The notes beneath the pieces are model-generated. The model worked only from the letters and a program-made list of their open reading frames with translations, did not search any database and had not been told where the DNA came from. Below are positions 1-60,273 of a stretch of 64,000 nt of DNA, piece by piece. Within the stretch, counting starts at the first letter, position 1, and every line of letters begins with the position of its first letter. Source of the DNA: a virus. Location of the stretch: positions 82,037-146,036 of the IMG/VR virus record IMGVR_UViG_3300025809_002164; one strand, written 5' to 3'. The position numbers and the translations under genes were made by a program.

Positions 1-636
1 TATCCAATAGTTTCTAATTAATATCTGCCTAGCTATATTGTAGTCGCATCCAGTTTTTTGACAAAGAAGATACATTTCTGTAAAAAATTGTACTTTAATT
101 GAATAAAAGCTATTGGCGAACAGTTTTGCTGACTCAGATTCCGTACTCTTACATTTAGTAATTCTAGCCCAAGGGTAGTTGATGGAGTGAAAATCAACGA
201 CTAGATTGTAGTGTTCACTTGAGCATAGCTTGGTCCTTCCTAAAACGATATGTTTTTGATTATGGTAATCTTCTTTGGCGGTTCTGGCTGTTAGAAATTC
301 TGGGTTATGAATTATATTTAAATTTGTATAGACCTCGGCAAACTCTTTACAAGATCCTGGTTCCAAGGTGCTTTTGCATATAACACTACCTTTAAATTTT
401 TTTTTATTTAAGTAATCTAGATTTTCCAAAATAGATTCTTTATTATAAGCTTGTAGTTTATTGTCGTAGGGTGTGGGTAGGCAAAGAAAAATTAATTCAG
501 ACACTAAAAGTTCTTCTAGGGTGCTGGCGCATTTTTTAAATTTATCATAAGATAGGACCTTTATTTTTTTCTTCTTAAAGCTTTCTGTCATTGCCCTTCC
601 GACGAATCCAGTTCCAATTACACCAACTGTAGTCAT
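1..636 (-). CDS. ugd: UDP-glucose/GDP-mannose 6-dehydrogenase (C-terminus runs off the window; missing from ORF track)
   Basis: Hand translation from ATG at 636: MTTVGVIGTGFVG (GxGxxG), LCLPTP, CKST, HNPEFL, AKLFANSF. ATGA overlap with the stop of the upstream gene. Confidence 0.9.
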   Translation of the reverse strand, partial: MTTVGVIGTGFVGRAMTESFKKKKIKVLSYDKFKKCASTLEELLVSELIFLCLPTPYDNKLQAYNKESILENLDYLNKKKFKGSVICKSTLEPGSCKEFAEVYTNLNIIHNPEFLTARTAKEDYHNQKHIVLGRTKLCSSEHYNLVVDFHSINYPWARITKCKSTESESAKLFANSFYSIKVQFFTEMYLLCQKTGCDYNIARQILIRNYWI

Positions 637-1253
637 TGTATCTTTTCGTAAAATTTATTCTGTCTTTCCTGGCGATCAATACTCTTAATGTGTGTTAATG
701 CATATTCTATTGTTTCGGGTAGCTTCACTCCGGTTTTGGCTCCAGTAATAATTTCGTGAACTTTGTTTTCCCATTTAATATTGAAATTATTCTTGAAAAT
801 TCTGTATTGATAATCAGGCCAGTTGACCCATTTATTCTCAGTGACCTTCCATTCCCATTTTTTAATATGAGCTTCAGTTAATCCATTAACTACATTGATT
901 CTTGGAACTAAAAATAGGTCAACATCTAGGTTCGACTCCAGTATCTTGTGCAAATTAATTACCGTTTCATCTGCAGGTATTTCGTCGGCATCGATTTGGA
1001 ATATATAATCTCCTTTGCATAATTTTTTTAGATTATTTTTAAATGCTGCAAAATTACCATTGAGCTTAAATGTGTTTTTTTTAAGTTTGAATTTTCTTAA
1101 AACGCTGGAAACTTCTTTTGTGTGATTGTCTTTATCTAATTGAACTACGATTTCGTCATCTTCTCTTTTTGATGAGGTCAGCATTTTGAGTAAAGACTCT
1201 AGTTCTGTGTGTTCATTGCATGCGGTAATTGCGTAGCTTATTTTAAAGTTCAT
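633..1253 (-). CDS. GT2-family glycosyltransferase
   Basis: ISYAITACNE start, KGDYIFQIDADE (DxD), WPDYQYRIF, VHE motifs. Confidence 0.85.
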   Translation of the reverse strand: MNFKISYAITACNEHTELESLLKMLTSSKREDDEIVVQLDKDNHTKEVSSVLRKFKLKKNTFKLNGNFAAFKNNLKKLCKGDYIFQIDADEIPADETVINLHKILESNLDVDLFLVPRINVVNGLTEAHIKKWEWKVTENKWVNWPDYQYRIFKNNFNIKWENKVHEIITGAKTGVKLPETIEYALTHIKSIDRQERQNKFYEKIQ

Positions 1254-1256
1254 TAT

Positions 1257-2111
1257 TTATTGTATTTTGTGTCCTTGGGTTTTCAACAAAAATCTATTCC
1301 ATTTATTTTCTAACATATGCTCTTGATGTTTTACGACTTGATCCTCGTTCTCCCATTTTGTTTGATTGATTGTTACTGATGGGCGAATGGAGGGTATGAA
1401 ATATATTGGAGCTAACCCTCTCAACTTGTCACAGAAATGCCAATGCTCTAACTGACCTTCGGAAAACCATTCAGCCTGATTAAAGTATTCACTCTTAATA
1501 AAAACAAAACCTCCAAATGATCTGTACACATCGATTGGTTTATTCTGATTAAATAACTCTCTATCAAGCTTGCGGTAGAATGGGTTGGAGCTCCAAGTCA
1601 TGCATTGATTTAAGTCGTGATCAACTAGGCTCCAGCTATCATAGTACGAGGTTAAATCTCTTGATCCCATTTTACAAGGAACATTTTGTCTAATGTTTGG
1701 TGTAAGCATTGAGAAATTTAAATTCAAAAAATTGAAATAATCATTAATTATATTTGGACTAAACTCTACATCGCTATCGAGCACGATTGTAAAATCAGAA
1801 TCAACAGGTTTGCCTAGTGCGGCCATGCTATTTCTAATTTTAGCCATCTTTACAACCCTAGCTGACTCCATTGTTGAGCCGTAAGATTTTTCGTTTAAGG
1901 TTTCAGACTTTAGCTCGCCGTTCTTATTCTCAATCCACTCGGATAAAATTCTAGCAGTATTATCTTTCGAGTCATTTTCGTAAAAAAAATATTCAAATTC
2001 TGCATTTGTAATATCCTCCATCAAGTCTAGTGATGATAAAGTTTTATCTATGTAATCCTCTGAATCTCTAAATAAACTAAAAACGGAAATTCGGTATTTT
2101 TTTATTGACAT
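1257..2111 (-). CDS. GT-A fold glycosyltransferase (Anp1/CAP59-like)
   Basis: YENDSKDNT, RN, VLDSDV (DxD), YYDSW, SFGG, EHWHFC pattern. Confidence 0.7.
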   Translation of the reverse strand: MSIKKYRISVFSLFRDSEDYIDKTLSSLDLMEDITNAEFEYFFYENDSKDNTARILSEWIENKNGELKSETLNEKSYGSTMESARVVKMAKIRNSMAALGKPVDSDFTIVLDSDVEFSPNIINDYFNFLNLNFSMLTPNIRQNVPCKMGSRDLTSYYDSWSLVDHDLNQCMTWSSNPFYRKLDRELFNQNKPIDVYRSFGGFVFIKSEYFNQAEWFSEGQLEHWHFCDKLRGLAPIYFIPSIRPSVTINQTKWENEDQVVKHQEHMLENKWNRFLLKTQGHKIQ

Positions 2112-7339: not shown

Positions 7340-9253
7340 ATGAAAAAATTAAAAGTATTAATTCACAGCAATCACTCTCGAGCTAAAACAGGTTTTGGTA
7401 AACATTTAAAAAACTTAATCACATATTTGTATAAAACAAAAAAATACGATATCATAGAATTAGCAAACGGCAAACAAGAAAACGATCCTTCTCTTGCTAC
7501 TATGCCTTGGAAATGCCTAGGCTCTCTACCTAGTGACCCTAGATTAATACAGGAATGTAACTCAGATCCCAACAAGGGCAGGCTGGCCAGTTACGGCCAC
7601 TACATGATAGATCAAGCGATCAAGAATGAAAAGCCTGATGTGTATTTAGGGGTAGAAGATATATGGGGCTTAGAGGGGTTATGGAAAAAAAAGTGGTGGA
7701 AAAAAATACACTCAATAGTATGGACCCCCATTGATAGTGTTCCGTTATTGGATAAACATATAGAGGGTGCATTAAATTCCAAGAAGATGATAGTTCAAGC
7801 TTCCTTTGCGATGAAAGCTCTAGAGGAAAAGGGTATAAAAAATACAGAGCTACTCCCGGTACCCCTAGACCCATCTAATTTTTTCAAGATAAGCGATACT
7901 GATAAACTAAATCTAAGACTTTTAAATAGTATAGGCAAGGATGACTTTATAATCGGTTTTGTTTTTCGCAATCAACTGAGGAAAAGTGTACCAAACCTAC
8001 TAGAAGGATTTAAAACTTTTATTAAAAATAATCCTGGAACAAATGCAAAATTATTATTCCACACACACTGGAATGAAGGCTGGGACATTCCGAGGTTATT
8101 AAAAGAAAAAAACATAGATCCTAAATTAGTATTAACCACTTACTTTTGTGATAAATGTAATAAATATGAAATAAAACCATTCTCAGGCCAGGAACTAGAC
8201 TGCAAGTTTTGCGGATCTAAAAAGTCCCAACAGACATCTCAAATAAACAGGGGAGTTTCCGAGTCTCAATTGAATGAAATTTACAATTTAATGGATGTAT
8301 ATTGCCATCCATTTACATCAGGAGGTCAAGAGATACCAATCCAAGAAGCGAAACTTTGTGAAATTATAACCCTAGTTACTAATTATTCATGCGGAGAAGA
8401 TTACAGTTCTATAGAATCTGGAGGCCTACCATTAACTTGGAGTGAATACAGAGAGCCAGGGACTCAATTCATTAAAGCTTCAACCGATAGCTCTAGTATA
8501 GAGTCTCAGTTAAAAGTTGTTTTTAATATGAGTAAAAAAGATAGAAGTTCCATGGGCAAGATTGCAAGAAAATTCACTATAGATTTTTGCTCAATTGATT
8601 CCGTTTGCTCTAAGTTTGATGATATTATATCTACAGTCACTCCCTCCGATTGGGATTTCAATCTAGATTACGAAGTTAAGAACGACACATACAATCCCCC
8701 TGAAATCAAAGAGGACAGAGAGTGGGTTATTGATTTGTATAAAAATATACTTAAAATTAATGCAGAGGAGGAGGATGTGGCTGGAATAAACCATTGGGTC
8801 TCCAGGCTTAAATCAGACTTAAACAGGCAGGCAGTCTATAATTATTTTATAGATGTAGCCAGAAAAGATAACTCAGAAAATAATAAAGTTCCATTTGAGG
8901 AGACCTTAGATCCAGAAGATAAAGGCAAAAGGATACTATTTGCCTTGCCCGGCTCAAGTATAGATGTATTTAATTCAACATCTTTATTGAAATATATAAA
9001 AGACAAGTACCCAGATAATAATATTTATTATGCCACTGATAAAGAAAATTTTGAAATTCTTTTTGGTAACCCATATATACATAAATTAATTCAATACGAC
9101 CCAATAATGGAAAATTTTTCATGGGCAGAAGGTCAAGGATCTCACGAAGGGTTCTTCAATTTTGTATTAATACCCCACACCAACACCCATAAGGCTCCTA
9201 ACTTTATACACGGAGATAAACATAAAATAGAATACGATATAAATTATGCATAA
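7340..9253 (+). CDS. multidomain glycosyltransferase: GT4 + Zn ribbon + DUF4214-like + GT9 N-lobe-like
   Basis: TGFG, FRNQLRKS, SGGQEIPIQEA; CDKC..CKFC; WVIDLYKNIL..GINHW..L; DVFNSTSLLKYIKDKYP..GNPYIH. Confidence 0.75.
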   Translation: MKKLKVLIHSNHSRAKTGFGKHLKNLITYLYKTKKYDIIELANGKQENDPSLATMPWKCLGSLPSDPRLIQECNSDPNKGRLASYGHYMIDQAIKNEKPDVYLGVEDIWGLEGLWKKKWWKKIHSIVWTPIDSVPLLDKHIEGALNSKKMIVQASFAMKALEEKGIKNTELLPVPLDPSNFFKISDTDKLNLRLLNSIGKDDFIIGFVFRNQLRKSVPNLLEGFKTFIKNNPGTNAKLLFHTHWNEGWDIPRLLKEKNIDPKLVLTTYFCDKCNKYEIKPFSGQELDCKFCGSKKSQQTSQINRGVSESQLNEIYNLMDVYCHPFTSGGQEIPIQEAKLCEIITLVTNYSCGEDYSSIESGGLPLTWSEYREPGTQFIKASTDSSSIESQLKVVFNMSKKDRSSMGKIARKFTIDFCSIDSVCSKFDDIISTVTPSDWDFNLDYEVKNDTYNPPEIKEDREWVIDLYKNILKINAEEEDVAGINHWVSRLKSDLNRQAVYNYFIDVARKDNSENNKVPFEETLDPEDKGKRILFALPGSSIDVFNSTSLLKYIKDKYPDNNIYYATDKENFEILFGNPYIHKLIQYDPIMENFSWAEGQGSHEGFFNFVLIPHTNTHKAPNFIHGDKHKIEYDINYA

Positions 9254-28253: not shown

Positions 28254-29876
28254 TTAAAAGTGTTTTGTGTGTTTAGCCACTTCGGAATTCCAACCTTCAG
28301 ACTCTTTTCCGGAGTAGTATCCAGATGTTCCAAGGTGTCCATATCTGAAATATTTCAGCCCGTCCCCTGTATTCTCAATAGTTGGGAAAGATTTATTCTT
28401 GCCATCAGCCCCTGTCTGGTTTTCATAGCCAGAAAAGAATACTCCAACCGCTGATTCTTCAGGGCCTCCTATTTGAGTTGAAAATGTAAGGTCTACGGTT
28501 TTATTGTCTCCTATTGATGAACTAAAGCTTTCTGAATCTAGTACGGCTTTTTTGAAATCAATCACAATAGCATCAGGTTTTGCGTTAGGATCACATACAA
28601 CACATGAAGGATTTTGAATTCTAACCTTAAGGTCGTAAGTTCCTCCGCAAATAAGATCAACTAAATTTCCATCTTTTAAATCTGCTACTAATGCATTAAC
28701 ACTCAAAGAGCAAGTTACAGGAAAATCTACTTCTTTAGCATATGCATATGTACTACCCAATCTCTGTAATGCTGATCTACCGAGAGGAGTAGATAACGAA
28801 AAGCTTTGAATGTGAGCACTACCAAAATCGGCAGGATTATTATACCCAACAGAATTTCCAGATAATTGCCTAGAAATTAATGCAGAATCTTGAAGATCTA
28901 TAGTTATATCTCCAGGCTTTAAGACGCTTTGACCTTGACCACTTTCAGTGGGGGGTAAAGTGAAGCATCTATCACAAATTAATGTGCCATCTGTTGGATC
29001 AATTGCTGGTATATTTTTGTAATCTGTACCCACGTCAGATTTTAAATTCATTCCTTCTACGGTAACTGAAGCTGTTGGAAAGGATCCAACACTTCCTTCT
29101 ATAGAATAATCAGTAACATAACCGTTTCCAAGACTAATAGATGTTTTCTCTGCCTCGGTTACCATTTGGTCACCCTTGAGAGCATCTCTGCCTTCTGGCA
29201 CAGTTAATATAAAAAAGTTGTTTCCAAATTCATTTTGAGATCGAGTCATCATTCCTGACAAGCTCTGAAATGAGCCATCAGTTACCATCCCCATTAATCT
29301 TTCATTTTCTCCATCCGTCAAGTAGTAAGAAAAATCCAGACTTACAGTTGGAGCCTCAAGGACCACAGAGTCGATTCTTGCTAAATGTCCAAACTGATTG
29401 ACATCTTGCCTATTTATAGTAAAGCTATAATTAGCGCTTTGAACTCTTTTAAGTTGCTCAACAGTTGTTCCCCATGAACCTTTAACATTGACGTCTCCAT
29501 AGTGCTTCATGTATTTCAAGCCATTACCCGTAACACCACTTAGCATACCAAGGTCAGCGAGTACTGGATGCCCCACCGCTTTGTAACCAGTATTCCCTGT
29601 AAGATTAAAGCCTGTAAAAGTTCCAGTACAGTCGTAAGTTTTATATTTAAAGTCAGTCCAAAGACCTCCTCCAGTTGTTCCGGATCCCACACAAGCATTA
29701 AAACCAAACGTGGAGTCATTCACACCACTTCCGGTTATCATACATTCATTTATCGTTGTTGCCCCGGTTACCGACTCGGGTGGCATGTAGTAAAGATGAT
29801 GACCTGTCGTGTCTGGTGATATGAATAAAGCTTCACTTTGATAAATTACTCGATTTCTTGCTGGTAGTTTGCTCAT
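28254..29876 (-). CDS. major tail tube protein (two tube domains)
   Basis: Beta-rich; RVQSANYSFTINR..FG and HIQSFSLSTPLGR..LG mark duplicated halves; follows neck genes; own promoter and terminator. Confidence 0.7.
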   Translation of the reverse strand: MSKLPARNRVIYQSEALFISPDTTGHHLYYMPPESVTGATTINECMITGSGVNDSTFGFNACVGSGTTGGGLWTDFKYKTYDCTGTFTGFNLTGNTGYKAVGHPVLADLGMLSGVTGNGLKYMKHYGDVNVKGSWGTTVEQLKRVQSANYSFTINRQDVNQFGHLARIDSVVLEAPTVSLDFSYYLTDGENERLMGMVTDGSFQSLSGMMTRSQNEFGNNFFILTVPEGRDALKGDQMVTEAEKTSISLGNGYVTDYSIEGSVGSFPTASVTVEGMNLKSDVGTDYKNIPAIDPTDGTLICDRCFTLPPTESGQGQSVLKPGDITIDLQDSALISRQLSGNSVGYNNPADFGSAHIQSFSLSTPLGRSALQRLGSTYAYAKEVDFPVTCSLSVNALVADLKDGNLVDLICGGTYDLKVRIQNPSCVVCDPNAKPDAIVIDFKKAVLDSESFSSSIGDNKTVDLTFSTQIGGPEESAVGVFFSGYENQTGADGKNKSFPTIENTGDGLKYFRYGHLGTSGYYSGKESEGWNSEVAKHTKHF

Positions 29877-29942: not shown

Positions 29943-31544
29943 TTATTCCCAAATTCCAGTAAACCTAATTTCCATTTTTGGAACACTGGAGGTTCCGTAG
30001 TTTGTGCTGACGGGGTCACTACTATAAAGGCCTACTCTTAGGTGTATGCTTTGATTATGCGCATCTTTAGTTATGGTCTTAACTTGAGTAAATGTCCCGT
30101 TATTATTTTTCTGCATCAGTCCAAAATCATATAAAAGAAAATCTGACAGTGTACATCCCGCAGGGTTTGCGAAATAATCAGGAGCAGATGTAAATTTATC
30201 ATCCGCAGCATTATCCATATTCAAGTAAGGCCACGGATCATCTGAACCTTGGTACACCCATCCGTACCCATCATCATGAGCCCCGTTACAACCTGCAGTA
30301 GATTTAATATTCATTGGATCTGCCGGTAAGATTGTAAATTTAGTTTTACCTTCAGGCCAAGCGATATTTGATTTACTCGAATTAAAGGCTGAACCTTGTG
30401 TATCTAATCCCCCATCGATTAAGGCTACGACTCCTCCTCCGCCTGCTCCAGTTAATTGTATGTAAGAATATTCAGGGTCAGCCTGACTTGGTGGTGAAGA
30501 CGTCGCTGTAGGAGTTACCGTAGCAGTCGGAGTGATAGTACTGGTAGGAGTAATAGATGAAGTAGCAGTCGGAGTGATAGTACTGGTAGGACTCACTGAA
30601 GATGTTATTGTAGCAGTCGGAGTGATAGTGCTGGTAGGAGTAATAGATGAAGTAGTAGTCGGAGTAGTAGTGGTCGTTGGAGTCGGAGTTTCACTAGCTC
30701 CAGGACTAACGCTAGCAGTCGGAGTAATCGTGCTCGTTGGAGTAATAGAGTTAGTCGGAGTTATTGTCTGAGTTATGGTCGGAGTTATTGTGCTAGTAGG
30801 AGTAATGGATGAGGTAACAGTCGGAGTTATCGTACTGGTAGGAGTCACTGAAGATGTTACTGTGGCAGTCGGAGTTATTGTGCTAGTAGGAGTAATGGAT
30901 GAGGTAACAGTCGGAGTTATCGTACTGGTAGGAGTCACTGAAGATGTTACTGTAGCCGTCGGAGTAATCGTACTGGTCGCACTCGGAGTAATCGTGCTAG
31001 TCGGAGTAATACTTGGAGTAGTCGTAATAGTCGGAGTAATACTCGGAGTAATCGTAATAGTCGGAGTAATACTTGGAGTAGTCGTAATAGTCGGAGTAAT
31101 CGTACTAGTCGGAGTAATCGAGCTGGTAGCAGTCGGGGTGATAGTGCTAGTGGGGGTAATAGTATTAGTTGGCGTAACACTTGCAGACATTAGCATTGAA
31201 GATGTCGGAGTTGGAGTCGGAGTAGTCGTGCTAGTTGGAGTAACACTAGGGTCAGGAGGGCAATTAAATTTTATCCCCGACAGCATTGGACTGATTCCAA
31301 ATACTTCTCCCTGCTCATTATAAGCGGAAACTTTATAATTATAAAGCACTGTATCACAATATTCTACTTCGTCAACCCCAGTAATAAGTATAGGGTTTCC
31401 TACTCCGGAAGGAATTAAAGTCTTAATGTGATTAAAATCTCCATAAGTAGATCCAGCGACTTCCTGCCTGTACAGCTTATAACCGTCAGCCAAGTAAGGC
31501 TCCTCGTTTTTGTGCAAAAAACTATAATATACTTTATATGCCAT
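29943..31544 (-). CDS. mucin-like virion protein: FN3-like N-domain, PTS stalk, globular tip
   Basis: GYKLYR...YNYKVSAYNEQGE; about 250 aa PTS. Confidence 0.8.
   Translation of the reverse strand: MAYKVYYSFLHKNEEPYLADGYKLYRQEVAGSTYGDFNHIKTLIPSGVGNPILITGVDEVEYCDTVLYNYKVSAYNEQGEVFGISPMLSGIKFNCPPDPSVTPTSTTTPTPTPTSSMLMSASVTPTNTITPTSTITPTATSSITPTSTITPTITTTPSITPTITITPSITPTITTTPSITPTSTITPSATSTITPTATVTSSVTPTSTITPTVTSSITPTSTITPTATVTSSVTPTSTITPTVTSSITPTSTITPTITQTITPTNSITPTSTITPTASVSPGASETPTPTTTTTPTTTSSITPTSTITPTATITSSVSPTSTITPTATSSITPTSTITPTATVTPTATSSPPSQADPEYSYIQLTGAGGGGVVALIDGGLDTQGSAFNSSKSNIAWPEGKTKFTILPADPMNIKSTAGCNGAHDDGYGWVYQGSDDPWPYLNMDNAADDKFTSAPDYFANPAGCTLSDFLLYDFGLMQKNNNGTFTQVKTITKDAHNQSIHLRVGLYSSDPVSTNYGTSSVPKMEIRFTGIWE
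30500..31250 (-). repeat. PTS-coding repeat with an internal ~84-bp duplication
   Basis: [30 protein letters not shown] occurs twice (about 30780-30960). Confidence 0.9.
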
Positions 31545-31553
31545 CTTTAATGT

Positions 31554-31558
31554 TACAC
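31554..31558 (-). promoter_or_regulatory. GTGTA late-promoter motif
   Basis: GTGTA-N9-ATG(31544). Confidence 0.65.
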
Positions 31559-31605
31559 TATTTTTTAACCTAGATAAAATATAAACCTATTTTTTATTAT
31601 AGAAG

Positions 31606-32637
31606 CTATTCCTTCAACTGTAAACCATAAGGAGCCTTTGGAGCTCTGGACTCTAAAATTAACCCATACGGAGACTGAGGTTTGAATGTAGTCTTTAAAG
31701 TTAGCGAGTATGGAGCTAAAGGAATGTATGCTGTCCTTGGAGCTCTAGAAGCTACCGGCTCAACTAATGGCTGCCTGGGAAACCTATGACTCCTTACATC
31801 AAAATCAACAAACCCTATATACAATCCAGGGTGAGCTTTTTTAGCAATTCTGTCATTGAGTTTAGATACAGTTACATTATCTATATAAAAAGAGCTTTGA
31901 CTATTATTTATATTAAAATACCTATCACTCAAATCCTTATACTCGTAGGTACCAAATTTTAAGTCACCAAATTCATTCAATGGATGCTCATTAAAGCCCA
32001 CGTTAGCCACATTCGTAAGCTTAGTATCTTTCAGTATTGAGAAAACCCCATCCAGCTGATATGAATTTTCCGCAAAAACAACACATCTAATCTTACTTTC
32101 GGTTGTATCTTCTCCGCCAAAAGCAAAAGGGTTATTCACTCCAGCCTCATAAGAGCAAAATATAGCAGGAACAACTTGATCGTATGGCTTAATTCCCTTA
32201 AAAATTTCTTGATCAAATCGACTATTTTTATCAAATTTAGTTTCAATTAATAATTCTTCTTCAGTTTGGTCTGTGATATATATATTAAAATCCTTAACAG
32301 AATACAACCCATCAACTTTCGATGACTCGTTAGCCATTTGCCTAGGTATTAATACTCTTCCATTATTGAAGTCATACTTAACTCCCATTTTATTTCTATC
32401 GATAAAAAAATTATCCAAAGTTATTCCCTTTATTATTTCAGCTCCCTCTACAGAAGAATCTGTGACCCATTGCTTGTGAGGCGAGGCAAATGCATAAAAA
32501 TTATCATCCAACCTTCCGTCATTTTGGAAATAAAAACTAGACTCTATGTTCTGGTATGCTTCTCCCTTACATAGTATTGCATGATCTAACCATAATACGA
32601 AACTTGTTATTATTTGGTGCTGGAATTGAGGTTTCAT
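31606..32637 (-). CDS. putative neck/tail terminator protein with C-terminal PxxPYxL triple repeat
   Basis: Position upstream of tube gene; PAIF..PFAFGG..IRCVVFAE..QLDG pattern. Confidence 0.5.
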   Translation of the reverse strand: MKPQFQHQIITSFVLWLDHAILCKGEAYQNIESSFYFQNDGRLDDNFYAFASPHKQWVTDSSVEGAEIIKGITLDNFFIDRNKMGVKYDFNNGRVLIPRQMANESSKVDGLYSVKDFNIYITDQTEEELLIETKFDKNSRFDQEIFKGIKPYDQVVPAIFCSYEAGVNNPFAFGGEDTTESKIRCVVFAENSYQLDGVFSILKDTKLTNVANVGFNEHPLNEFGDLKFGTYEYKDLSDRYFNINNSQSSFYIDNVTVSKLNDRIAKKAHPGLYIGFVDFDVRSHRFPRQPLVEPVASRAPRTAYIPLAPYSLTLKTTFKPQSPYGLILESRAPKAPYGLQLKE

Positions 32638-59202: not shown

Positions 59203-60273
59203 ATGAATATACTATTAACTGCCTCTTTTGCTAACGGCCTATTTTGTAATGGACTTCAGCAAAACATTGTCTTCCTAGCCGAAATGTTAAAAGACATGAA
59301 CTACAATGTAGCTATCTGCATAAATCATCCTATCAGCGAGTGTAGCGATCCTCCAACTGGAATCTTAATAATGGAAGAGGATGAAATAGATTCTGAATTT
59401 AATCCTGACTTTGTTCTTCAAACTGGATTTGTATTAAGAGACTCTACGATTGATGGAATAAAAAATAAAAATCATAGATGCAAAAACATTCATGTTCATT
59501 ACGGAAACAGAATGCTAGCAGATATAGAGCAGTGCAAGTGGGATACTATGGCGATCACCGACCACAAAGTCGATGAAATTTGGGTCTCCCCTCATTATGA
59601 AATCTCAATACCATACTTTAAGGCATTCTACCACACTCAGAAGGTTCACATTATACCTTATATTTGGAGCCCTAAGTATATAGACATTCATAGATCTATA
59701 TACATAAAACGAGGAAAGGATTGTAAATACATCCCAGGTCAAGAAAAAAACATTGCAATAGTTGAGCCTAATTTAAACATGACAAAAAACTGCTTGCCTG
59801 CAATACTTATAGCCGAGGAGTTAATTCAAGACCAGCCTGACTTGTTTAATAAACTTTATGTGTATTGCTCTAGCTCGATAATGGAAAAGAGATATTTTAG
59901 AGGGTGGATGTGGAACTTAGATTTACCAAAGCTCGGTAAAGTTCAATTCTCAGGAAGAAATAAAATCTCAGACATCTTTGCGAACGATGCGAATGTCGTC
60001 ATCTCTCACCACTTAATGAATGCTTTAAATTACACTCATTTAGAATCTATATATTTAGATATACCCTTAGTGCATAACTCTGAATACATGAAAGACTCCG
60101 GGTACTATTACCCAGATTACGATATACAGAAGGGAGCGTCAAGATTAATGGAAGCCTTAACTTATCACGATGAAAGCCTTGACGAATATAGAAAAAAAGC
60201 TAAATCGACATTGCATCGTTTCTCGCCAGACAACGAGCTAGTGAGAGCTAAATACCGACTACTGTTCTTATGA
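59203..60273 (+). CDS. DUF2827-like putative GT-B glycosyltransferase
   Basis: NGLQQN, GN, W.SPH, PYIWSP, EPN..KN..P, SH..N.LNY, PLVHNS, GYYYPD. Confidence 0.75.
   Translation: MNILLTASFANGLFCNGLQQNIVFLAEMLKDMNYNVAICINHPISECSDPPTGILIMEEDEIDSEFNPDFVLQTGFVLRDSTIDGIKNKNHRCKNIHVHYGNRMLADIEQCKWDTMAITDHKVDEIWVSPHYEISIPYFKAFYHTQKVHIIPYIWSPKYIDIHRSIYIKRGKDCKYIPGQEKNIAIVEPNLNMTKNCLPAILIAEELIQDQPDLFNKLYVYCSSSIMEKRYFRGWMWNLDLPKLGKVQFSGRNKISDIFANDANVVISHHLMNALNYTHLESIYLDIPLVHNSEYMKDSGYYYPDYDIQKGASRLMEALTYHDESLDEYRKKAKSTLHRFSPDNELVRAKYRLLFL

What the first reader, a model, noticed from the sequence alone, without database searches (positions are those of the whole stretch)
31250..31722. Possible donor-strand docking: three FN3 A-strand-like peptides on the neck protein, A-strand-less FN3 in the next gene
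The 343-aa protein ends PLAPYSLTL-PQSPYGLIL-PKAPYGLQL, matching the PxAPxxL first strand of FN3 domains. The next gene starts an FN3-like domain at strand B (VYYSF..GYKLYR..YKVSAYN..GE) with no such strand, then its mucin stalk. Inference: each neck subunit binds up to three stalk proteins by strand complementation, forming a collar brush.
Basis: inference. Interest (0 to 1): 0.8.

Follow-up and report, generated by a model that had tools for sequence, protein, structure and literature searches.

The report
Repeated strand docks phage neck stalks
In this uncultured marine phage, a probable neck (tail-terminator) protein ends in three copies of a short strand that the next gene's fibronectin-type domain lacks, so each neck subunit can probably clip on up to three long Thr/Pro-rich stalk proteins by completing their fold; a similar rope-and-whisker design is known from other phages, and binding here is predicted, not measured.

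Summary
The 343-aa protein ends in three P-x-x-P-Y-x-L-x-L units found nowhere else in the 146-kb genome. The next gene begins with an FN3 domain that lacks exactly strand A. Evidence: (1) natural fusions (core + one unit + domain, no partner gene) fold as a complete FN3 with the unit as strand A. (2) In 26 split loci, 2-5 units always come with the partner gene; 88 tail-less loci lack both. (3) A complex model places a unit antiparallel to strand B (score 0.64, best control 0.01). (4) Where the units carry Cys at +2, the acceptor has Cys at the predicted facing position (2 of 2, against 0 of 23; the second case was predicted first). One fused form arose again inside the split clade. Full triple occupancy, the tail-terminator identity and stalk glycosylation are inferred. 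It works like the Bas63/GP4/A1002 rope-whisker and the Tuc2009 BppU-BppA joint, but uses a repeated FN3 strand A. The scan has noted other split FN3/PKD joints on other phage genomes.

The parts
31774..32637 (-). Core (residues 1-288) of the 343-aa protein; probable tail terminator with an inserted beta domain
   Evidence: 752 homologues, many ending at this point. Nearest annotated ESM Atlas clusters are Gp37 / Phage_tail_terminator / SP10_terminator at 0.85 or lower, a lead only. Gene order as described for terminators in PMC11784142.
31723..31773 (-). Pro-rich linker (289-305) of fixed length
   Evidence: Distance from core end to the key Pro of unit 1 is 20 aa in 59 of 60 split tails and nearly the same in fused forms
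31696..31722 (-). Donor unit 1 (FN3 strand A), residues 306-314
   Evidence: Aligns with the single unit of fused homologues, which is strand E312-318 of a complete FN3
31654..31680 (-). Donor unit 2, residues 320-328
   Evidence: Motif and PSSM match
31615..31641 (-). Donor unit 3, residues 333-341
   Evidence: Antiparallel on acceptor strand B (5-11), touching F (70-74) and G, in the best run of the complex model
31545..31605 (-). 61-nt AT-rich spacer with GTGTAA at 31553-31558, a probable phage promoter motif of the partner gene
   Evidence: GTGTA lies within 40 nt upstream of all 22 partner genes checked. Spacers are 23-61 nt in all three frames. The partner's frame opens only at 31586.
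31260..31544 (-). Acceptor: FN3 domain lacking strand A (residues 1-95), with Cys63 and Cys95
   Evidence: AF2 model and structure search. Cys63 is invariant in 23 acceptors and Cys95 is kept wherever the row reaches it.
30489..31259 (-). Thr/Ser/Pro stalk, 257 aa
   Evidence: 60% T+S, 77% T+S+P. About 150-520 aa in relatives; absent in L107 and L139.
29946..30488 (-). Distal head domain, about 180 aa, fast-evolving, no known family
   Evidence: Mostly 24-40% identity between relatives; no Pfam or Atlas hit
28254..29876 (-). Context: probable tail-tube protein. It directly follows the terminator gene in tail-less and fused relatives.
   Evidence: The tube identity rests on gene order and earlier scan notes and was not tested here.

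Best explanation
The two genes are made as separate proteins (shown by sequence: own start, conserved upstream motif, no shared frame). The 343-aa protein is probably the hexameric tail terminator (inferred, about 0.8). Its C-terminal tail is a rope of three FN3 A strands. Each strand slips into the groove between strands B and G of the A-less FN3 domain at the N-terminus of a 533-aa stalk protein and completes the sandwich (predicted, and supported by fusions and covariation, about 0.9). With 12-14 aa between units, several acceptors can sit in series (predicted, about 0.7). That gives up to 3 per subunit and 18 per six-fold ring, each carrying a 257-aa Thr/Ser/Pro stalk and a variable head: a brush of adhesion or shielding fibres at the head-tail junction (function inferred; O-glycosylation by phage enzymes is a guess). 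The system most likely arose when a terminator-FN3 fusion split after strand A and the strand was then duplicated 2-5 times. At least one lineage fused again.
For: Fusions: P0057, P0061-P0069, P0071 and P0072 are core + one unit + the homologous domain; in the five read in context the probable tube gene follows directly (and L103). The fused domain is a full FN3 with the unit as strand A; the acceptor alone lacks just that strand. Covariation: 22 tailed loci plus the window, L185, L186 and L200 all have the partner next door; 88 tail-less loci have none. No acceptor was found in 27 tail-less virus records, three of them at least 90% complete, while 5 of 5 tailed records have one. Complex model of 3 acceptors + tail: score 0.64, best control 0.01 (mark reached by 58 of 80 solved and 2 of 110 mismatched pairs; runs agree in at least 77% of contacts; partner pLDDT at least 53). 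Two of three runs have 264-269 confident contacts against 96 in the run with one strand bound. Cys pair: donor +2 Cys with acceptor Cys10 in L124 and L200, neither in the other 23 loci; residues 10 and 338 are among the closest predicted pairs; L200 was predicted in a note before it was fetched. Periods are never under 12 aa in 145 intervals. Tree of cores: P0057 nests in the split clade, and one clade of all fused forms is rejected, p-AU 0.003.
Against: No binding, virion or expression data exist. A pass for two halves of an FN3 domain can come from likeness to solved FN3 structures. The interface was printed only for the run with one strand fully bound, so triple occupancy is inferred from contact counts. 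Presence/absence covariation reflects few evolutionary events (3-4 changes on the tree), and the Cys pair may be a single event (the two acceptors are 72% identical). Fused P0069 has Cys10 without a donor Cys. Two diverged acceptors (P0138, P0140) lie next to an RNR gene, away from any terminator, and their donor could not be found. The terminator fold of the core was not confirmed.
Confidence: 0.72

Rival explanations
1. Strand complementation is real but monovalent: one acceptor binds per terminator subunit, and the extra units are spare sites that speed capture, give alternative registers or pair with neighbouring subunits.
For: The best-scoring run shows only unit 3 fully inserted. Crowding on a six-fold ring was not modelled.
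Against: Two of three runs have about 2.8 times more confident contacts, with partner pLDDT 80-81. In L124 all four units, and in L200 three of four, carry the Cys facing acceptor Cys10. Periods are never under 12 aa. Fused forms keep exactly one unit.
Confidence: 0.15
2. The joint is real but the 343-aa protein is not the tail terminator, so the stalks are not a collar brush but sit elsewhere on the virion.
For: No Pfam, PHROG, PDB-sequence, fold or hhalign match to a terminator. The core is about twice the size of lambda gpU.
Against: It lies immediately upstream of the probable tube gene, the usual terminator position (PMC11784142). All ten best annotated Atlas hits share a family or clan with the Gp37/terminator hit. 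The predicted helix-sheet-helix order outside the inserted beta domain fits a terminator (my reading).
Confidence: 0.07
3. The A-less domain is stable by itself (stapled by Cys63-Cys95) or self-associates, and the repeats are relics or bind something else.
For: AF2 folds it alone with pLDDT 86. P0138 and P0140 lie far from a terminator gene and have changed groove residues.
Against: The units are amplified and conserved only where the partner exists. The Cys pair covaries across the two genes. Control complexes score 0.00-0.01.
Confidence: 0.04
4. Read-through or a frameshift joins the two ORFs, so the domain is completed in cis, as with frameshift-added Ig/FN3 domains on phage tail proteins (SPP1 gp17.1*; own knowledge).
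For: Fused relatives exist, and such recoding is known in tail genes (own knowledge).
Against: The partner frame opens at 31586, 20 nt past the terminator stop. Spacers vary from 23 to 61 nt in all frames, and every partner has its own GTGTA motif. In the 452-762-aa terminators, 110-420 aa of other domains lie between the units and the stop.
Confidence: 0.02

Closest known systems
Collar/rope-whisker assemblies of phages Bas63 (PMC12609058), Sf14, GP4 and A1002 (PMC13730344)
   Same: An extended rope from a neck or nozzle protein runs through grooves and completes a series of incomplete beta-sandwiches, so several separately encoded subunits hang on one scaffold subunit.
   Different: There the beads are whisker dimers of about 140-170 aa, and the rope comes from an Ig-like collar or nozzle protein or a separate rope protein. 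Here the acceptor is an FN3 lacking strand A, the rope is a C-terminal array of discrete A-strand copies on a probable tail terminator, each bead carries a long T/S/P stalk and head, and fused relatives show the origin.
Lactococcus phage Tuc2009 baseplate joint, BppU C-terminal hairpin with BppA domain 2 (PMC4742702)
   Same: A C-terminal extension of a structural protein completes a sandwich in an accessory protein, and the composite resembles a titin domain (2NZI). 2NZI is also among the matches here.
   Different: Tuc2009 donates one two-strand hairpin, 1:1, at the baseplate. Here a single strand A is repeated 2-5 times, probably at the neck.
Donor-strand complementation in chaperone-usher pili (FimA, PapA; own knowledge)
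   Same: A missing strand of an Ig-like sandwich is supplied in trans by a short peptide.
   Different: Pilins lack strand G, each subunit carries both donor and acceptor, they polymerise, and they need a chaperone and an usher. Here strand A is missing, the donor is only on the scaffold, and the acceptor has no donor, so it cannot polymerise.
Ig/FN3 domains fused or frameshift-appended to phage tail proteins (SPP1 gp17.1*, lambda gpV, T5 pb6; own knowledge)
   Same: An FN3/Ig domain decorates a tail ring protein. The fused relatives found here are of this kind.
   Different: Those are covalent and one per chain. Here the link is non-covalent (or a disulfide in some lineages) and can be multivalent.

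Membership tests
FN3 domain | Seven-stranded A-B-E / C'-C-F-G sandwich | tested here: met
   Fused homologue residues 304-419: Z 10.3, rmsd 2.4, 94 aligned to twitchin Fn3. The acceptor alone has six strands and matches FN3 from strand B on, Z 8.8.
FN3 domain | P-x-x-P-x-x-L-x-hydrophobic strand A packing antiparallel on strand B | tested here: met
   The unit is strand E312-318 in the fused model and lies antiparallel to residues 5-11 in the complex model. Prediction only.
Rope-whisker assembly (Bas63/Sf14/GP4/A1002) | Rope completes a series of incomplete sandwiches | tested here: inconclusive
   One site shown in the model; several sites inferred from contact counts and Cys in all units
Rope-whisker assembly (Bas63/Sf14/GP4/A1002) | Beads are dimers of the whisker/Fiber-1 fold with an N-terminal helix | tested here: not met
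   The acceptor model has no helix and is an FN3 sandwich (description of whiskers)
Chaperone-usher donor-strand pilins | Each subunit lacks strand G and carries its own donor strand, so it polymerises | tested here: not met
   Strand A is missing and G is present. No donor motif occurs in the 533-aa protein.
Tuc2009 BppU-BppA joint | Single beta-hairpin donor, at the baseplate | tested here: not met
   Single-strand donors in tandem
Tail terminator (gpU / gp17 / p142 / Mu gp37) | Gene between tail completion and tail tube genes | tested here: met
   Order kept in all loci read (PMC11784142). The neighbours are themselves named by position only.
Tail terminator (gpU / gp17 / p142 / Mu gp37) | Four-stranded sheet flanked by two helices | tested here: inconclusive
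   Secondary structure compatible; Atlas lead 0.85; FN3 filled the fold-search lists; hhalign to gpU not significant
Tail terminator (gpU / gp17 / p142 / Mu gp37) | Hexameric ring at the top of the tail tube | not testable with these tools
   Needs a virion structure

The most novel reading that the evidence does not exclude
A natural, tunable multivalent peptide-tag system. A phage split an FN3 domain after strand A and duplicated that strand so that copy number (2-5) sets the number of mucin-like stalks per neck subunit. Some lineages lock the joint with an inter-chain disulfide, and extra acceptor genes elsewhere in the genome (P0138, P0140) may load different heads on the same rope.
Probability: 0.45. 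Interest if true: 0.75.

Novelty: new variant of a known kind. Interest (0 to 1): 0.64.

Why it matters
It catches the birth of a strand-complementation joint: fused, split-and-amplified, and re-fused states all survive in one phage group, so the step from a covalent decoration domain to a multivalent docking rope can be traced. It explains how an uncultured marine phage could hang up to 18 long T/S/P stalks on its neck. It also offers a small natural peptide/domain pair (9-aa tag, 95-aa catcher, an optional disulfide variant) that is easy to test and may be useful as a tagging tool. The general principle is already known from solved phage structures, which limits the surprise.

Tried and rejected
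Pfam, PHROG and PDB-sequence searches gave nothing for either protein. No cultured phage in INPHARED encodes a homologue of the 343-aa protein. Fold searches with the fused model were filled by FN3 and did not test the core; hhalign to lambda gpU was not significant. Read-through or frameshift was rejected. No second acceptor or further donor array was found in the own genome; one 35-aa segment at E 0.001 was treated as chance. The terminator of the P0138 phage is not on its 61-kb, 43%-complete record. The partner of P0032 (Cys at +4) is cut off after five codons. L184 looked like an interrupted partner but appears to be a chimeric assembly; L185 has the frame intact. The FN3-like start of L016:9913 is not detectably homologous to the acceptor. 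RNA contigs touched only the core and say nothing about expression. The sigma-70 scan was near chance level. Literature searches for donor-strand FN3 on tail terminators found no report; the library is incomplete.

Full report
Setting. The window is the last 64 kb of a 146-kb virus record, found in marine metagenomes of many studies. On the minus strand run genes of 195, 198, 343, 533 and 540 aa; relatives carry a PhageMin_Tail tape-measure gene nearby on the other strand. No cultured phage has a homologue of the 343-aa protein.

Observation. The 343-aa protein has a conserved core ending at residue 288 and a 55-aa tail with three P-x-x-P-Y-x-L-x-L units at 306-314, 320-328 and 333-341. The motif occurs nowhere else in the genome's ORFs, and 0 of 200,000 tail shuffles gave two copies. 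The next gene starts 61 nt later. Its first 95 residues fold as a six-stranded sandwich (pLDDT 86) that matches FN3 domains from strand B onward. A 257-aa stalk with 77% T/S/P and a 180-aa head of no known family follow.

Three states in relatives. Homologues fall into three kinds. (i) About 281 aa, no tail, probable tube gene directly behind: 88 non-redundant loci, none with the partner; 27 such virus records searched whole had no acceptor, though most are partial. (ii) A tail of 2-5 units with the partner gene directly behind: 22 loci plus the window, L185, L186 and L200; two more loci end too early to tell. (iii) Fusions of core, one unit and the homologous domain, with the probable tube gene directly behind. 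AF2 of fused P0062 makes the unit strand 312-318, and residues 304-419 match whole FN3 domains (Z 10.3, rmsd 2.4). The same PDB chains are matched 13-18 residues later by the acceptor alone (Ihog 464 against 477, twitchin 5 against 19). The unit is therefore strand A of this very domain.

Two proteins, not one. The partner frame opens 20 nt after the terminator stop. Spacers are 23-61 nt in all three frames. All 22 partners checked have a GTGTA motif just upstream, as do other genes of this phage. In some relatives 110-420 aa of further domains lie between the units and the stop. Recoding is rejected.

Binding model. Three acceptors plus tail 299-343 scored 0.64 against a best control of 0.01. 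The mark was reached by 58 of 80 solved and 2 of 110 mismatched pairs (counts hold only roughly here); runs agree in at least 77% of contacts and the partner's pLDDT is at least 53. In the printed run, unit 3 lies antiparallel on strand B (11 with 336-337, 7 with 339-341) and touches F and G, the strand-A site. The other two runs have 264-269 confident contacts against 96, with partner pLDDT 80-81, which fits all three sites being filled; those interfaces were not printed. Halves of an FN3 domain can pass by likeness to solved structures, so this alone is not proof.

Sequence evidence for the register. Acceptor residue 10 faces donor position +2 (residue 338) in the model. In L124 all four units have Cys at +2 and the acceptor has Cys10. 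I noted the prediction and then fetched P0036, whose first three units have that Cys: its partner also has Cys10. None of the other 23 loci has either. The two terminator cores are 77% and the acceptors 72% identical, so this may be one event; fused P0069 has Cys10 alone. A second swap fits FN3 geometry. Split acceptors have an invariant Cys63 (E-F loop) and a C-terminal Cys95; the main fused clade lacks Cys63 but has a Cys just after strand A. From FN3 topology (own knowledge) all these positions lie at one pole, so the C-terminal Cys probably changed partner when strand A left the chain. Unit spacing is mostly 12-14 aa and never below 12, about the length one domain needs in series (inference).

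History. On a tree of cores only, the main fused clade (98/96) is sister to the split clade (88/82, moderate support). Fused P0057 nests deep inside the split clade, and one clade of all fused forms is rejected (p-AU 0.003). P0057 keeps the split-type Cys63 and a single unit. The simplest reading is fission with strand duplication, then one re-fusion; the direction of the first step rests on a moderately supported node. The presence/absence pattern stands for only 3-4 events.

What the scaffold is. Position before the probable tube gene fits a tail terminator (PMC11784142), the nearest annotated Atlas clusters are Gp37 and terminator families (0.85, a lead), and the predicted secondary structure is compatible. 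No direct fold match was obtained. A hexamer would give up to 18 stalks. Stalks vary from none (L107, L139: a bare 94-aa domain) to over 500 aa, and heads diverge quickly, as expected of outward-facing adhesion or shielding fibres. The genome encodes several glycosyltransferases; that they modify the stalks is untested.

Loose end. P0138 and P0140 begin with a diverged acceptor, carry a stalk and an unrelated head (a weak LamG hit in P0140), and sit behind an RNR beta gene. The P0138 phage is a close relative (RNR beta 95%, RecA 84%), but its terminator is not on the record. They may be a second cargo for the same rope or a counter-example.

Comparison. [quoted passage not shown] In Tuc2009 a BppU hairpin completes BppA into a titin-like domain (PMC4742702). 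So it works like these systems, but it is a member of neither: the fold, the donor, the scaffold and the cargo differ. I found no report of tandem FN3 A strands on a terminator. Earlier notes of this scan describe other split FN3/PKD joints in unrelated phages; they are unchecked and not counted as support.

Verdict. A real feature and a new variant of a known kind. Binding about 0.9, multivalency about 0.7, neck location about 0.8; interest 0.64.

Noticed in passing
L183:3001-4125 (P0138) and P0140: Diverged A-less acceptor + stalk + unrelated head, encoded behind RNR beta; the P0138 phage is a close relative. Possible second cargo; its terminator was not found.
   Followed up: partly
L016:9913-11862: A 649-aa protein also seems to start with an FN3-like domain at strand B, in a phage whose terminator has no tail. 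Not detectably homologous to the acceptor; donor unknown.
   Followed up: partly
L107:2703-2987, L139:2011-2295: The partner is only the bare 94-aa acceptor domain, and the terminator is about 760 aa with further beta and FN3-like domains after the three units.
   Followed up: partly
L001, L003, L010 terminators (452-469 aa): A conserved 110-aa beta-rich domain ending in Cys follows the last donor unit; fold not examined.
   Followed up: no
P0032 (L202:75-1163): Donor units carry Cys at +4 and just after the unit, predicting a Cys near acceptor position 8; the partner is cut off by the contig end.
   Followed up: partly
P0099: A terminator homologue outside the tailed clade with a different 197-aa C-terminal extension and no units: an independent decoration.
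   Followed up: no
window 31553-31558, and upstream of 28170, 22387, 35950, 49565, 59203: GTGTA(A/T) motif within 30 nt upstream of 17 of 161 ORFs of the genome; probable phage promoter element.
   Followed up: partly
window 633-2111, 7340-9253, 59203-63648: Several glycosyltransferase-like genes (GT2, CAP59-like, GT25/GT34, DUF2827 pair) in a genome with at least five T/S/P-stalk proteins.
   Followed up: partly
L184:5288 onward: Phage partner gene joined to bacterial ECF-sigma DNA; probably a chimeric assembly, since L185 has the frame intact.
   Followed up: yes
L121, L123, L007 donor/acceptor pairs: Acidic residues at donor +2 face Lys at acceptor position 10, a possible charge complement at the same cross-strand pair; too few cases to test.
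   Followed up: partly
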